DNA of 20,000 nt from Spizellomyces punctatus DAOM BR117 (taxonomy: Eukaryota): assembly GCA_000182565.2 (NCBI GenBank), contig KQ257454.1. The stretch is one strand, 5' to 3'. The notes below the pieces were generated by a model. The model did not search any database, was not told the DNA's origin, and worked only from the letters and a program-made list of their open reading frames with translations. The position numbers and the translations under genes are program-made. Of the stretch, positions 1,640-16,054 are shown piece by piece (position 1 is the first letter of the stretch; each line of letters begins with the position of its first letter).

Positions 1640-1906
1640 GTATAAGATCTGAGGCCGGAGTTTTGTAAATAGATGTATATTGCATTAGAATACCCATGAT
1701 TTGATTACGGAAAAGCTCCGCGAATCGATAGTTCCCATGTTTATGAGGAATCCATATTTTCATGTTGGTTTGTATAGATCGCGTATCAGGTGATTGTGAG
1801 GAGAATCACCAGAAAACGCCTGAAAGCCATGGACGCAGCAACATTGAATATGCGCTCATAGTCGTTGGTTGTGCATGCGCACTTATCTGCAGTGGGACTC
1901 GTCCTA

Positions 1907-2971
1907 CTATGCAAATCCCGTTTCCTTCATTTTCCTTCTAACCAGGTCTTCGGTAGTCTGTATCTGGTCTTCCAAAGACATGTTTGAACTGTCCACCACA
2001 ACAGCGTCATCGGCCTTCAATAGAGGTCCTACTTCACGGGTCCGATCCGACAAATCTCTAGCCTCAATTTCCTTTAGCACTGTTTCCAGATCTGGAAGAT
2101 CACCCTTGGATTGCTTTCTCTGGAGTTCCTCCAACCGCCGCTTAGCTCTAACAAGTGGATCTGCTTCAAAAAAGATTTTGAGATGGGCTTGTTTAAGGAC
2201 GTTGGTGCCAATGTCTCGGCCGTCCATTACGACGCCGCTGGGGACTTGTGACTCGGGCGACACGTCTTTTGGGGCCAATTCAGCACAAAGGTCACCGAGT
2301 TCTTTTATCTGGTCCTTGAGACTTTGAACCTGTGCGAAATCTCCTTCGGAAGTTGCCGTAAATAGGGCCTTCTCAAGCTCGATCTTTTCCTGGAGGAACA
2401 TTGCGTACTCGGAATCAGCACTCGCCTCCTCGGGTGGGGGCTGCCCTTCCTTTCCTTCAGCAATAGCTCGCTGTTTGGAGCACAGAACCTCTCGTACTGA
2501 GGGTAAAGCTGCTATAGGGGCTACGGCGCGCGTGATCATTGGCAATCGGATCTCATCCGTCACATCGACCCCGTCCAAGTACACGTGCGTTATAGCTGTT
2601 CTGGCGTTATCCAGCTGATCAACGGGAAGTTGGGGTGTACGAAAAGCAAAATTGGTTTGAGAGGCCATATTTGTGATGGTTTGAGCGTCTTTCGTAGGGT
2701 CCAGATTCCACGCCATAGCTTTGAGTGTCAAGCCTCGATACATTGCCCCAGAGTCGATATATGTGAAGCCTAGACGCGACGCCACTGCACGGGCGGTCGT
2801 GCTTTTCCCGGACGCTGCTGGGCCATCTATGGCCACTTGGAAGCTCTTAATTGATGTGGAATAGTATTGGACTCTGGCGACAGGGAACAGGTTGGCGTTG
2901 AAGAGCGGAGATCGGAACCCTAGCACGGAGAGTCTGGGCTTAGGAAGCCAGTTTGCATAAACATGAAGCAT
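1907..2971 (-). CDS. cmk: Bacterial-type cytidylate kinase ((d)CMP kinase) with N-terminal presequence-like extension and ~70-aa internal insertion; true start uncertain
   Basis: Uninterrupted ORF with Cmk signature motifs VAIDGPAASGKST (P-loop), YIDSGAMYR, LDGVDVTDEIR, QRAIA, GVVMDGRDIGT, EADPLVRAKRR, RDLSDRTREVGPL and DAVVVDSSNMS. Confidence 0.92.
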   Translation of the reverse strand: MLHVYANWLPKPRLSVLGFRSPLFNANLFPVARVQYYSTSIKSFQVAIDGPAASGKSTTARAVASRLGFTYIDSGAMYRGLTLKAMAWNLDPTKDAQTITNMASQTNFAFRTPQLPVDQLDNARTAITHVYLDGVDVTDEIRLPMITRAVAPIAALPSVREVLCSKQRAIAEGKEGQPPPEEASADSEYAMFLQEKIELEKALFTATSEGDFAQVQSLKDQIKELGDLCAELAPKDVSPESQVPSGVVMDGRDIGTNVLKQAHLKIFFEADPLVRAKRRLEELQRKQSKGDLPDLETVLKEIEARDLSDRTREVGPLLKADDAVVVDSSNMSLEDQIQTTEDLVRRKMKETGFA

Positions 2972-3235
2972 AAACAGAGAAAGATGATAAGATGTGAAAA
3001 CGTTATAAAGGCTCTAAAGAAGATGAAAAGATGCTCCTTACCTGCAACATGTTTCAGAGAAGGAGGGAGGATGGCGATGAATGATCTCAAAGGCGACTCG
3101 TGCAGCAATGTCCAAATAAATCGATGATCGGCTTAGTAAGCAATGAGTCAGCAATTTTGTGACTTGAGGTGCCGACACTGGGTCTTGTTTGAATTGTTGG
3201 GTCTTCCTGTGCGATCACCGTAGCGACGGAAGAGA

Positions 3236-5783: not shown

Positions 5784-6554
5784 TCATCCTAAAAGATTTG
5801 ATTTTCCAACTGCATACCCAACGGCAGCGGCCGCAGCAGCGAAGCCAACCAGCCATCCCACTACCTTGTTGTCAATCAACGAAAGGCCCCGACGCGCTAC
5901 AGTACCATGCGTGAATTCCGCCCCATCTCGTACATAATATCTTGCAAACAAGTCGTTTTGAATCCACAACAGCTTTGATAATGCTGCCAACGTCTTTGCC
6001 CTTCCCTCCGGATCTGCCTGCAAGGCCGGGTGTGCATCCAGGGTCTCGATCAAGAACCCATGTAGCCAGGCAAACAGAGCATTGACGTGAATGTATTCAA
6101 CGTTGATTTTTGACTTTTTCGACGGCGTATCAGTATGAATCTTGCCCACCCAATCCAAGTACGTCACGAAAGCCTTGTCGTACGACCCAGTCACCAGTTT
6201 TACGAGATATTTTCCCAAAAAGTCTTTTCTGAATTTGATTTGCTCCGAATCCAAGACAAGATGATCCAAGTCGCTGGCGAGCTGACCCTCAAACCCCTGA
6301 TTCCGCTGCAAAAAGACGCCCTTGGTAATGTCAAACGAAAAGAGACGCTCGTAAACCTTATCCACAATCGTTGGGACAAGAGGAGCGACAAGGGGAGCGG
6401 CTGCCTTGAGAGCAGCGATATCGGTTTCGTTAAAGTTTGCAAATTCCGAGACGTACGTGAAGCGGTAGTACGTGTCAGTGTAAAGACGCGGTCTGTCAAT
6501 GTGTTTGGGAGCCGCGGGCGTAGGAGTTGTTGAAGTCGGATTAAGAGGAGCCAT
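5784..6554 (-). CDS. Protoglobin/globin-sensor-type single-domain globin with C-terminal hydrophobic (putative tail-anchor) segment
   Basis: Intronless 256-aa ORF. RFTYVSEFANFNETDIAAL, IVDKVYERLFSF, YLDWVGKIHT (candidate proximal His), INVEYIHVNAL and ALSKLLWIQNDLF resemble fungal and bacterial protoglobin-family sensor globins. It ends in VVGWLVGFAAAAAAVGYAVGKSNLLG. Confidence 0.82.
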   Translation of the reverse strand: MAPLNPTSTTPTPAAPKHIDRPRLYTDTYYRFTYVSEFANFNETDIAALKAAAPLVAPLVPTIVDKVYERLFSFDITKGVFLQRNQGFEGQLASDLDHLVLDSEQIKFRKDFLGKYLVKLVTGSYDKAFVTYLDWVGKIHTDTPSKKSKINVEYIHVNALFAWLHGFLIETLDAHPALQADPEGRAKTLAALSKLLWIQNDLFARYYVRDGAEFTHGTVARRGLSLIDNKVVGWLVGFAAAAAAVGYAVGKSNLLG

Positions 6555-13344: not shown

Positions 13345-14465
13345 ATTTATCGGTATATCGAAAATTCAAAGTGGGGTGGCAGATGCAAAGCTATATACGA
13401 TTGCTGAAATAGGGCGCTCAGCCCGTGACAATATGCAATTTGCTGAAAAAAAAATGTACAGACGTTTGTTAGCTAAAGGTAGTCGGGTATGATTCACGAA
13501 AGATTTTGCAAACGCCTCTAGCGAAGCCCGGCAATAGTCCTCAAGCGCTACGGGCACGAAAATCTCGAACGCGCGTTACGTACACCGCTCAAGACTTTCC
13601 AGCGTATGCTTCACAAGGATTACTCCGCTTCGTTACGCACAGAGTGCTCTCAGGAGGCTAGGCGTCCAACCAACCGTCCAGAAACACACCTCCAAAGTCA
13701 AAGGGCAATGCGTCGCGGTGACTCACAGGAAGACTCCGCCGACTTCAGCCCAGGAGTACCCTAGACTTGCGACCGATGCAAGTACGTGCGCCAGCGTTAA
13801 AGGAATCGGGATCTCTCGCAGGACAAGGTTAAATCAGACGGCTGTGGAGGATGCGGGGGGCGGCTAACGCTAGCGATAGTGGCACTTGCGATACTCGTTT
13901 GCAATGATTACGATACCCACGCCGCCTGGTTCGGAACATGTGACATTTGTCACACAAGCTGTCAGCAGGGCTTCTTGTTGCCGTGTGTTTGTTTTTAAAA
14001 TGTTTGGGGGAATGTTTTTAAACTCTAAACAAGGACTGTACAGGAATGCCAAGTGTCAATAAGCTTTGAATATGGACGCCCCCGTTACTCCTGGTCTGGA
14101 AGCGACTCTAAAGAAGGTAATTCGTGTGCATCCGACGCGATAGGGATTCCAACTTATTTGGGCTCAAGGGTGATGGAGATTGGTCGCTTTGCAGCGTGAA
14201 CATGTAGCTTCGACCAATGTCGGCCGATATGTGATGGAGGCCTGACAGAATATGAACATTGGGCTGTTGCAATGTCAAGCCAGTCCTGCTTGTTCCAAGA
14301 AGGTGATAATGCATGGAGCGATCGCTCAGATGCTGATGAGAGCATGCGCCACGGCTTAGCGACTGGCTGCGCCCATTCTCATTGAACGTCCAACTCATTC
14401 AACAGTTGTGCTCGGTTTGGCGAGATCACACATTCCACTTCAATTTTCCAGAACTCCTCCTTGCC

Positions 14466-16054
14466 ATGCGCAACATTTCCATTCTGGCGGGCTCGAGTCA
14501 CCCGCAGTTGGCACAGGACATATGTCAGCGACTAGGCATCCCGCAAGGAAGGGCGACATTGTCAAAATTTTCAAACAAGGAGACGAATGTGGAGGTCGGA
14601 GAGTCCGTCCGAGAACAAGATGTATATATCATCCAATCTGGCTGCGGAAATGTGAACGATAACTTTGTCGAAATGCTGATCATGATTGCTGCCTGCAAGA
14701 CCGCCAGTGCAAAGTACGTTATGCAAATCCCAATTGTTCATAACGCCTTCCATATTATCCAGACTTTGTAAGACGCTTACTCATGTAAATGTGTAGGAAA
14801 GTCACCGCTGTCATTCCATGCTTTCCATATGCCCGTCAACCGGAAACGCCGTATAAGAGGAATAGTGTGCCTTCGTCTCGTGTGGCAAAGCGTGATGATG
14901 ACAAGTTTGGCACAATGTATGACGGTCAATTGCAGTCACCTATAAAACCTTCATCGCTCCCTAGCCCTCCACCAAACTCTGACTCGTCCACTGCCAACTC
15001 TACCGACACCCCGCCCCAGCCAGAGATCTTTGAGAAATCCATGAGCAGCTTATCATTCCCAGATGAGGACGATACACCACTTCCCGCGCCGAAGCTCAGG
15101 CATCTTCGCACCGAATCTACCCTGTCTCTTGACGGTGGAGGTCGTGTGTCGAGTATTAGTCGCTCGCACTCCAATGTCGCTGTGCATCCGCTTGCCCCAC
15201 AACCGCCGGCTGACCGACCTCTTCAGACCGGGACTTGTACACCTGGACCTGGATCGGGTAATGGAGGTTACAAACACTGGACAGCGAGGAGCGGTACACT
15301 GATAGCAAACATGCTGATGGCAGCTGGTAAGTCCATGTAAGCCATGGCACCTTTCATGTGCGTCAACTTAAGGTGCCACGCTCGACCTGCCAAAGGCGCG
15401 GATCACATTATTACTATGGACCTCCACGATCCTCAATTTCAAGGATTTTTTGACATTCCTGTGGATAACCTATACGGCCAGCCCTTGATGATAAAGTATA
15501 TCAAGGAGAAAATACCAGATTTTCAGAACGCCGTTATTGTGTCTCCTGATGCAGGTGGTGCGAAGAGGTATGTCATTTTCTCGCTCGTCATCTCCGAAAG
15601 GTAATCATGGCACTAATCTGTTGATTCAAGGGCCACGGTCATTGCCGACAAGCTCAACGTGGATTTTGCATTGATTCACAAAGAGCGGCGGGTGGCTGCT
15701 GGCTCGGAATTGATCCTGGTTGGAGATGTCAAGGATAGGGTGTGCATATTGGTTGATGATATTGCTGATACATCATTTACAATTACGCGGGCTGCCACGT
15801 TATTGACGAAGAGTGGGGCTACCAAGATCTATGCGCTAATTACTCATGGAATCCTCAGCGGGAATGCCCTCGAACGGATCAAGAACTCGACCATTGACGA
15901 GGTGGTGGTGAGCAACAGCGTTCCCCAGCAGGATCATCTGGCACATTGTGACAAGATCAAAGTGTTTGACATTGCTGGAGTGTTTGCGGAAGCCATCAGG
16001 CGGATACACAATGGGGAGAGCGTCAGTTTCTTGTTCGAACAAACGCCATATTGA
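14466..16054 (+). CDS. PRS5: Ribose-phosphate pyrophosphokinase (PRPP synthetase), fungal PRS5-like with long low-complexity insertion
   Basis: Exons 14466-14713, 14797-15326, 15396-15567, 15631-16054. Motifs: [83 protein letters not shown] and [13 protein letters not shown]. The ~140-aa S/P-rich insert after PYARQ suggests the PRS5 subtype (subtype less certain than family). Confidence 0.93.

What the first reader, a model, noticed from the sequence alone, without database searches (positions are those of the whole stretch)
2237..2455. UVR (UvrB/UvrC-motif)-like helical hairpin inserted inside the cytidylate kinase fold
Seen in sequence: about 70 extra residues sit in frame between QRAIA and GVVMDGRDIG, which are only a few residues apart in canonical Cmk. 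The core LQEKIELEKALFTATSEGDFAQVQSLKDQIKEL (nt ~2395-2297) fits the UVR pattern L-E-x-x-[ML]-x-x-A-x-x-x-x-D-F-x-x-A-x-x-L-R-D-Q-I-x-x-L and is flanked by Pro/Glu-rich linkers. Established: UVR motifs are helical-hairpin interaction modules in UvrB, UvrC, McsA and the ClpC M-domain. Inference: a Cmk-UVR architecture I do not recognise, which could drive dimerisation or docking onto another organellar protein such as a protease or nucleoid factor.
Basis: partly seen in the sequence, partly recalled or inferred. Interest (0 to 1): 0.7.

Follow-up and report, generated by a model that had tools for sequence, protein, structure and literature searches.

The report
Chytrid CMP kinase with inserted hairpin
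A soil fungus's CMP kinase carries a real, protein-coding 71-residue insert predicted to fold as a two-helix hairpin; it resembles the bacterial UVR pairing motif in shape but lacks that motif's key residues, so it is most likely a genus-specific add-on rather than a true UVR domain.

Summary
The insert is real. It lies in frame in a bacterial-type cytidylate kinase (minus strand, 3050-1907), which a database source names as Spizellomyces punctatus. It adds 71 residues at the helix alpha6 to core-strand junction.

It is very probably exonic: it scores as coding, S. sp. 'palustris' keeps it at 71 of 72 residues, and RNA-library contigs run through it. AlphaFold2 folds its core as an antiparallel two-helix hairpin and leaves the kinase intact.

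The UVR label is only partly right. Register and shape fit, but Pfam PF02151 does not hit. A UVR profile built here scores it below all 30 true members and level with unrelated hairpins of the same genome. The near-invariant E, A and R are replaced, and the interface Phe is the one residue that changes in 'palustris'. No UvrB, UvrC or credible UVR partner was found in the genome.

The site is a fungal insertion hotspot (25 of 25 other named fungal Cmks are lengthened there), and the closest other chytrid enzyme lacks the hairpin. Verdict: a genus-restricted accessory hairpin with a probably convergent UVR-like pattern, on a likely mitochondrial CMP kinase. No paper on it was found; interest is modest.

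The parts
3042..3050 (-). Exon 1 (Met-Leu-Gln) of the database gene model of the cytidylate kinase
   Evidence: P0002 starts MLQ then PRL; ATG at 3050 in the sequence. Gene model only; the splice was not seen in reads. The 'palustris' model starts at the in-frame ATG equivalent to 2971 instead.
2939..3041 (-). 103-nt GT-AG intron of the database model (35% GC, 44% T)
   Evidence: Inferred from P0002 against the window; scores non-coding in all three frames.
2846..2971 (-). N-terminal leader (aa 1-42 of the ORF from 2971): basic, no acidic residues, mitochondrial-presequence-like
   Evidence: 5 Arg/Lys, 0 Asp/Glu; no such leader in the five bacterial-type rows of alignment A1 beyond a short extension in one. 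Targeting is inferred; no predictor was run.
1907..2971 (-). Bacterial-type (d)CMP kinase ORF, 354 aa, single copy in the genome
   Evidence: TIGR00017 over cut-off; best fold matches are CMP kinases; one match in own genome; polyadenylated minus-strand 3' end near 1661.
2801..2824 (-). P-loop (aa 50-57)
   Evidence: Sequence; conserved columns in alignment A1.
2237..2455 (-). The insert (aa 173-245), at the junction of helix alpha6 and the core strand carrying DGRD
   Evidence: alpha6 joins the central and NMP-binding domains (PMC3603445 passage).
2411..2455 (-). N-terminal Pro/Glu-rich linker (aa 173-187); corresponds to the shorter loop of Fimicolochytrium jonesii
   Evidence: Alignment; pLDDT about 70-84.
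2348..2410 (-). Hairpin helix 1 (aa 188-208)
   Evidence: AlphaFold2 helix 148-168 of the model; helix 2-25 when folded alone.
2339..2347 (-). Three-residue turn (aa 209-211, E-G-D)
2276..2338 (-). Hairpin helix 2 (aa 212-232); its first residue is Phe here and Ser in 'palustris' and in contig X3
2297..2395 (-). 33-residue stretch in UVR register (aa 193-225)
   Evidence: Best window of the ungapped UVR profile, score 8.1 against 17.8-71.0 for left-out true members.
2237..2275 (-). C-terminal Pro-containing linker (aa 233-245)
   Evidence: pLDDT about 68-83.
2238..2408 (-). Candidate in-frame 171-nt GT-AG intron covering the hairpin; tested and disfavoured
   Evidence: Donor and acceptor present; scores coding in the Cmk frame; contigs X1 and X3 run across or inside it.
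2213..2224 (-). DGRD motif (aa 250-253)
   Evidence: R252 and D253 invariant in 301 of 301 aligned Cmks.

Best explanation
The gene encodes an intact bacterial-type CMP kinase (CMP + ATP to CDP + ADP), probably imported into mitochondria. In fungi the surface loop after helix alpha6 tolerates extra sequence. In the Spizellomyces lineage it grew by about 53 residues beyond the loop of Fimicolochytrium and now holds a self-folding antiparallel hairpin of two 21-residue helices on flexible acidic linkers. The hairpin hangs off the enzyme without entering the active site and is kept by purifying selection. Most likely it is an accessory, acidic protein-binding handle, for example holding the kinase at a partner in organellar nucleotide supply. 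Its UVR-like pattern reflects the general code of tight-turn helical hairpins, shared with the Rabenosyn Rab-binding domain, not UVR-to-UVR docking. SHOWN: insert, family, coding signature, conservation in one sister taxon, absence from the F. jonesii model, sub-threshold UVR score. PREDICTED: fold. INFERRED: activity, mitochondrial location, selection, binding role.
For: Catalytic and substrate residues are kept: D73, R79, R160, R252, D253, R275, R278, R279, R305, D306, D309, R312. Model mean pLDDT 91.2 with an intact Cmk fold and hairpin blocks at 84-94; the hairpin alone folds at pLDDT 93.2. Coding score 10.6 in the Cmk frame, above all 256 non-coding segments (max 9.5) and above the coding median 6.5. 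1 of 72 insert residues differs from 'palustris', against 15 of 240 in the core and 6 of 42 in the leader (Fisher p 0.08 against core, and 0.02 for the 57-codon part against leader). 25 of 25 other named fungal Cmks have a lengthened loop here (20-45 against 18). The genome's Rbsn domain scores 6.7 and a MINDY stretch 5.8 on the UVR profile, against 8.1 for the insert. Fold matches are a tie of unrelated hairpins.
Against: No partner is identified and the binding role has no direct evidence. Selection rests on one sister sequence at protein level; no dN/dS was possible, and the insert is not significantly more conserved than the core. The UVR register match is better than shuffles (0 of 5000) and ranks second of about 496,000 windows after composition correction, so remote homology is not excluded. 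No spliced-read proof that the segment is exonic.
Confidence: 0.5

Rival explanations
1. The hairpin is a true but degenerate UVR domain, or a homologue from a wider UVR/Rabenosyn hairpin group, captured into the loop. It pairs tip to tip with itself or with a UVR-like hairpin on a partner, as UvrB does with UvrC.
For: Ungapped register: L7, A14, F20, L26, D28, I30, L33 of the UVR consensus are kept. 0 of 5000 shuffles reach the score. HHalign to the UVR set gives probability 41% over 28 columns. UvrB 1qoj (rmsd 0.8 over 45), McsA 8wtb (Z 8.1, rmsd 0.6 over 47) and ClpC 9a66 and 9qcl are among the fold matches.
Against: No PF02151 hit. HMM score 2.4 against 15.1-61.8 for left-out members. E21 (29 of 30), A23 (30 of 30), A24 (26 of 30) and R27 (29 of 30) are lost. 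The interface Phe is Ser in 'palustris' and in contig X3, which drops the score to 0.8. No fold match is significant (best E 0.69) and ferritins and designed proteins tie. No UvrB or UvrC in the genome, and the only PF02151 hit is in a MINDY deubiquitinase. No donor found.
Confidence: 0.18
2. The insert is exonic but has no selected role: a recent, tolerated expansion of a permissive loop, possibly an old intron now retained in frame, that happens to be helical.
For: The site takes unrelated inserts in all other named fungi examined. A GT-AG pair brackets the hairpin in frame, and the donor falls where likeness to F. jonesii ends. It is found in one genus only. Conservation against the core is not significant (p 0.08).
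Against: 1 change in 57 codons against 6 of 42 in the leader (p 0.02). Full coding signature and exon-like composition (18% T against 44% T in the model intron). A confident fold from a single sequence.
Confidence: 0.2
3. Bases 2408-2238 are a stop-free intron, spliced out always or in a share of transcripts. The main product is then a Cmk with a short loop like that of F. jonesii, and the hairpin is an annotation artefact or a minor isoform.
For: GT donor and CAG acceptor 171 nt apart keep the frame. The spliced loop would be close in length to that of F. jonesii. Both Spizellomyces records are gene models. Raw-read depth in the insert is under 1.
Against: Scores coding, above 256 of 256 non-coding segments. 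No polypyrimidine tract before the acceptor. Protein-level conservation in 'palustris'. Metatranscriptome contig X1 (2355-2552) crosses the donor without a gap, contig X3 (2252-2402) lies wholly inside, and no joints were listed in 4 runs. These contigs may come from DNA in the libraries; no silent stretch was laid as a control.
Confidence: 0.1

Closest known systems
Bacterial-type (d)CMP kinase Cmk (TIGR00017, PF02224; E. coli 1cke and 1kdo, S. aureus 2h92, microsporidian 7l4a)
   Same: Over the family cut-off; P-loop, DGRD and the conserved arginines and aspartates kept; same predicted fold.
   Different: Presequence-like leader; 71 extra residues after helix alpha6. Ala151 stands where E. 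coli has Ser101 and 227 of 301 aligned Cmks have Ser; its role in dCMP use is recalled, not checked.
Cmks of other early-diverging fungi (F. jonesii KAI8824242.1; Mucorales, Mortierellaceae, Glomeromycotina)
   Same: Same clade in the tree; extra sequence at the same loop in 25 of 25.
   Different: Their loops add 2-27 residues and are unrelated in sequence to the hairpin; none is long enough to hold it.
UVR motif (Pfam PF02151) of UvrB, UvrC, McsA, the ClpC middle domain and plant CLPF, EXE and UVR1-4
   Same: Two-helix hairpin with a three-residue turn, same register, seven consensus positions kept.
   Different: Below every member on three scores; lacks E, A, A and R after the Phe; the Phe is not fixed within the genus; no partner in the genome.
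Rabenosyn-5 Rab-binding domain (Pfam PF11464; 1z0j, 1yzm)
   Same: Same hairpin shape (1z0j: rmsd 0.6, 25% identity over 44 columns; Z 8.2). The genome's own copy aligns without gaps at 11 of 43 identities.
   Different: Not a candidate in the PF11464 genome search, no Pfam hit; the pairwise score is reached by 5 of 57,349 windows, the insert included.

Membership tests
Cmk (TIGR00017 / PF02224) | Profile score over the curated cut-off | tested here: met
   189.9 against 135.55; 191.6 against 26.
Cmk (TIGR00017 / PF02224) | P-loop, DGRD and conserved Arg/Asp residues; three-domain NMP kinase fold | tested here: met
Cmk (TIGR00017 / PF02224) | CMP or dCMP kinase activity | not testable with these tools
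   Needs an assay; Ser101 equivalent is Ala.
UVR motif (PF02151) | Pfam score at or above 21.5 bits, or within the range of true members | tested here: not met
   No hit; not a candidate in the genome search; own HMM 2.4 against 15.1-61.8; ungapped profile 8.1 against 17.8-71.0; composition-corrected 44.0 against 54.9-103.8.
UVR motif (PF02151) | Near-invariant E, A and R, D after the aromatic residue | tested here: not met
   Only D is kept; Ala213, Val215 and Lys219 stand at E (29 of 30), A (30 of 30) and R (29 of 30).
UVR motif (PF02151) | Interface Phe and Arg seven residues apart (UvrB F652 and R659) | tested here: not met
   Phe212 is Ser in 'palustris' and contig X3; the Arg position is Lys. 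The mapping rests on the profile register and the spacing of seven.
UVR motif (PF02151) | Helix-loop-helix hairpin of about 35-45 residues with a tight turn | tested here: met
   Predicted; rmsd 0.6-0.8 to UvrB and McsA hairpins. Not specific: 1633 of 48,161 chains reach Z 5 or more.
UVR motif (PF02151) | Tip-to-tip pairing with itself or another UVR motif | not testable with these tools
   Needs biophysics on the purified hairpin.
Rbsn Rab-binding domain (PF11464) | Pfam score at or above 26 bits | tested here: not met
   No hit; the genome search finds only the true domain on contig C6.
Rbsn Rab-binding domain (PF11464) | Hairpin fold and remote sequence likeness | tested here: inconclusive
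   Shape ties with many hairpins; single-sequence comparison only.
Spliceosomal intron (2408-2238) | Non-coding, T-rich sequence like this genome's introns; junction reads | tested here: not met
   Coding score, composition, no joints and two unspliced contigs. Read depth was too low to exclude a minor spliced form.

The most novel reading that the evidence does not exclude
A chytrid mitochondrial CMP kinase has captured a degenerate UVR-type pairing module inside its fold, at the joint between the NMP-binding and core domains. It uses it to dimerise or to dock on an organellar partner, with the in-frame GT-AG pair possibly switching the module in or out by splicing.
Probability: 0.12. Interest if true: 0.6.

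Novelty: new variant of a known kind. Interest (0 to 1): 0.27.

Why it matters
If the best reading holds, this is a clean, small example of a folded module appearing inside a housekeeping enzyme within one genus, at a loop that fungi repeatedly expand. It is easy to test, since a deletion can be assayed for kinase activity and partners. It also shows that UVR-like patterns arise easily in tight-turn hairpins: two non-UVR proteins of the same genome score alike, so the label needs the E, A and R residues. It would matter more only if the hairpin proved to be a captured UVR module with a partner.

Tried and rejected
1. Homodimer prediction of the hairpin (aa 184-236, two copies): no verdict, score 0.04 against a mark of 0.32, controls not folded. 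This is no evidence for or against binding.
2. Origin by duplication of the enzyme's own lid helices: 168 of 2000 protein shuffles and 639 of 1000 codon shuffles reach the score, and a lid HMM gives 0.2 bits. Rejected.
3. Origin from elsewhere in the genome: the protein search gave only a prohibitin-like exon at E 0.24 (name from my reading of the translation); the DNA search gave only self.
4. Homologues of the insert: 1 hit (self) among 42 candidates; no usable ESM Atlas hit in two searches; PDB sequence search gave two chance hits, E 0.31 and 0.73; PF24729 at E 0.048 is below its cut-off.
5. More chytrid orthologues: two metagenome scans confirmed none (205 and 152 pattern matches). The targeted search found only S. 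punctatus and F. jonesii as close hits among 55. This is weak evidence of absence.
6. Run X4: its contigs cover the model intron and the region between the divergent genes unspliced, so it may be DNA; not used as evidence of an exon.
7. A window on contig C2 that outscored the insert after composition correction lies antisense to a longer open frame; treated as chance.
8. Literature: searches found no paper on this enzyme, its insert or UVR domains in fungi. The library lacks most subscription journals, and supplements were not searched.

Full report
WHAT IS THERE. The finding lies in a 354-codon minus-strand ORF, window 2971-1907. It is a bacterial-type cytidylate kinase: TIGR00017 189.9 bits against a cut-off of 135.55, PF02224 in two stretches, and PDB sequence and fold matches to CMP kinases. 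The window is eukaryotic: the database twin P0002 is labelled cytidylate kinase of Spizellomyces punctatus and differs only at the N-terminus, through a 103-nt intron at 3041-2939. The gene is single copy and has a polyadenylated 3' end near 1661. Its leader has 5 basic and no acidic residues, which suggests mitochondrial import; no predictor was run. The genome also has several matches to the eukaryotic UMP-CMP kinase profile, none over the cut-off in exon-wise search (14 of 14 scored), so a separate cytosolic enzyme is plausible but not shown.

THE INSERT IS REAL. From R160 to D250 there are 89 residues, against 18 in 240 of 301 usable Cmks (301 of 303 selected from 323 stored proteins). The insert follows the helix that, by passages of PMC3603445, joins the central and NMP-binding domains (alpha6; my mapping by alignment). 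All conserved positions checked are intact except Ala151, where E. coli has Ser101.

THE SITE IS A FUNGAL HOTSPOT. All 25 other named fungal Cmks have 20-45 residues in that span, with unrelated sequences. The closest other chytrid enzyme, from Fimicolochytrium jonesii (54% identity), has 36 and no hairpin. In a FastTree tree of 70 sequences and 220 columns, midpoint-rooted, the three chytrid enzymes group with support 1.0. All 19 named fungal sequences lie in one clade (0.94) with 15 unnamed ones, two of which I had labelled bacterial without evidence. The simplest reading is a gain on the Spizellomyces branch. The F. jonesii record is a gene model whose DNA I could not see, so a spliced-out counterpart there is not excluded.

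EXON OR INTRON. A GT at 2408 and a CAG ending at 2238 would remove 171 nt in frame and leave a loop near the F. jonesii length, so I tested this. A 3-periodic Markov model, trained on 200 kb of the genome with long open frames as coding and frame-poor stretches as non-coding, scores the 57 codons 10.6 in the Cmk frame. The coding median is 6.5 (n 151), the non-coding maximum 9.5 (n 256), and the model intron scores negative in all frames. The insert is 18% T against 44% T in that intron. S. sp. 'palustris' keeps 71 of 72 residues, against 15 of 240 differences in the core and 6 of 42 in the leader (counts read by hand; Fisher p 0.08 and, for the 57 codons against the leader, 0.02). Of 4 runs laid out of 12 listed, metatranscriptome contig X1 crosses the donor without a gap, contig X3 lies inside the candidate intron, and no joints were listed. 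Four of the five listed contig differences in the ORF are at third codon positions. Against this: raw-read depth in the insert is under 1 because run X10 is 3'-biased, the contigs could come from DNA, and no silent control stretch was laid. An exon is therefore very probable but not proven.

FOLD. AlphaFold2 with 141 sequences gives mean pLDDT 91.2, an intact Cmk fold, and helices at aa 188-208 and 212-232 joined by a three-residue turn, with linkers near 68-84. The hairpin alone folds the same way at pLDDT 93.2. Fold searches give no significant match: best Foldseek E 0.69, and a plateau at Z 7.7-8.7 with 1633 of 48,161 chains at Z 5 or more. UVR structures are in the tie (ClpC 9a66 and 9qcl, UvrB 1qoj, McsA 8wtb), and so are ferritins, designed proteins and the Rabenosyn-5 Rab-binding domain.

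IS IT A UVR DOMAIN. Pfam gives no PF02151 hit on three cuts, and the locus was not a candidate in the genome-wide PF02151 search. I built a set of 30 domains from the 37 PF02151 matches in 12 bacterial genomes, namely those returned as loci; one is below the Pfam cut-off. An HMM from them scores the insert 2.4 bits, against 15.1-61.8 for left-out members; 36 of 2000 shuffles reach it. An ungapped profile puts it in register at aa 193-225 with 8.1, against 17.8-71.0; 0 of 5000 shuffles reach it. Kept: L7, A14, F20, L26, D28, I30, L33. Lost: E21 (29 of 30), A23 (30 of 30), A24 (26 of 30), R27 (29 of 30). Passages of PMC10085695 name UvrB F652 and R659 as key interface residues. Here the Arg position is Lys, and the Phe is the single residue that differs in 'palustris' (Ser), also Ser in contig X3 at depth 3; the 'palustris' score is 0.8. 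HHalign gives 41%.

CONTROLS FOR THE RESEMBLANCE. It was top of 57,764 windows in the first 220 kb, but the window was chosen for this likeness. In 800 kb of other own-genome DNA, 2 of 224,594 windows score higher (3 of 495,921 with shorter frames), and a tail fit predicts about 50-85 genome-wide. After composition correction 1 of 495,921 is higher; the insert (44.0) stays below all members (54.9 and up) and near the genome's Rbsn domain (40.5). That Rbsn domain, a clear member of another family, scores 6.7 uncorrected and itself finds UvrB and ClpC weakly in the PDB. The genome's only PF02151 hit is a 20-residue stretch of a MINDY deubiquitinase. UvrB matches are confined to the helicase part (13 weak matches of 15 scored) and UvrC has none. 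These genome searches score only first-look candidates. So the pattern is real but generic to tight-turn hairpins; remote homology is possible and not shown.

HOW IT MOST LIKELY WORKS. The kinase phosphorylates CMP, probably in mitochondria (inferred). The hairpin hangs from a permissive loop on flexible acidic linkers (net charge -10 for the insert) and should not be needed for catalysis (inferred from the model and conserved residues). Its conservation suggests selection, and the usual role of such hairpins is protein binding (own knowledge), so I favour an accessory binding handle that does not use the UVR code (0.5). Rivals: tolerated expansion without a role (0.2), degenerate UVR-type module (0.18), spliced or alternatively spliced intron (0.1).

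LITERATURE SEEN. PMC10085695, 2 passages; PMC8889267, 7 passages on plastid UVR proteins; PMC3603445, 4 passages; 10.1101/487215 and PMC7024210, 1 and 3 passages, neither on this gene. Searches (listings only) found nothing on this enzyme, its insert or fungal UVR domains; some searches were background searches. Supplements were not searched and may list the gene. Earlier scan notes held no look-alike sequence, nothing for the combined words, eight unrelated phage and bacterial UVR-like cases shown out of 12, and one first-reader title on this same gene.

VERDICT. Observation partly confirmed, interpretation partly supported. A new variant of a known enzyme: a genus-restricted hairpin in a fungal hotspot loop, UVR-like in shape, not a member of the UVR family on the tests run. 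Interest 0.27.

Noticed in passing
window 1661-1714: The cmk transcript (minus strand, poly(A) near 1661) and the convergent plus-strand gene (poly(A) near 1714) overlap by about 54 nt at their 3' ends.
   Followed up: no
window 2519-2521 (-), aa 151: Ala replaces the Ser found in 227 of 301 Cmks (E. coli Ser101) in all three chytrid enzymes. From recall this Ser favours dCMP use, so the enzyme may prefer CMP; not checked in a paper.
   Followed up: partly
window 2939-3050 (-): Two possible starts: the database model uses ATG 3050 with a 103-nt intron, while an in-frame ATG at 2971 inside that intron gives a longer leader and matches the 'palustris' model.
   Followed up: partly
L002 (G000:C6:840317-840376, -): A MINDY deubiquitinase has a 20-residue stretch that reaches the PF02151 cut-off in the genome search (21.6 bits) and 18.6 bits as a protein; probably chance.
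   Followed up: partly
L135 (G000:C6:734877-734996, -): The chytrid Rabenosyn Rab-binding domain has a UVR-like pattern after its turn and finds UvrB 1e52 (E 0.52) as well as human rabenosyn-5 (E 0.53) in the PDB; the two families may be remote relatives.
   Followed up: partly
tree of P-proteins: Named fungal bacterial-type Cmks form one clade whose sister group includes sequences labelled Calditrichota (node support 0.94). Sampling was biased to best hits and no rooting or clade test was run.
   Followed up: partly
window 5784-6554 (-): Intronless ORF with a Protoglobin domain (PF11563, E 6e-42) and a hydrophobic C-terminal tail.
   Followed up: partly
window 14400-16054 (+): Phosphoribosyl pyrophosphate synthetase gene (last exon PF14572) with what looks like a long Ser/Pro-rich insertion around 14789-15340.
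   Followed up: no
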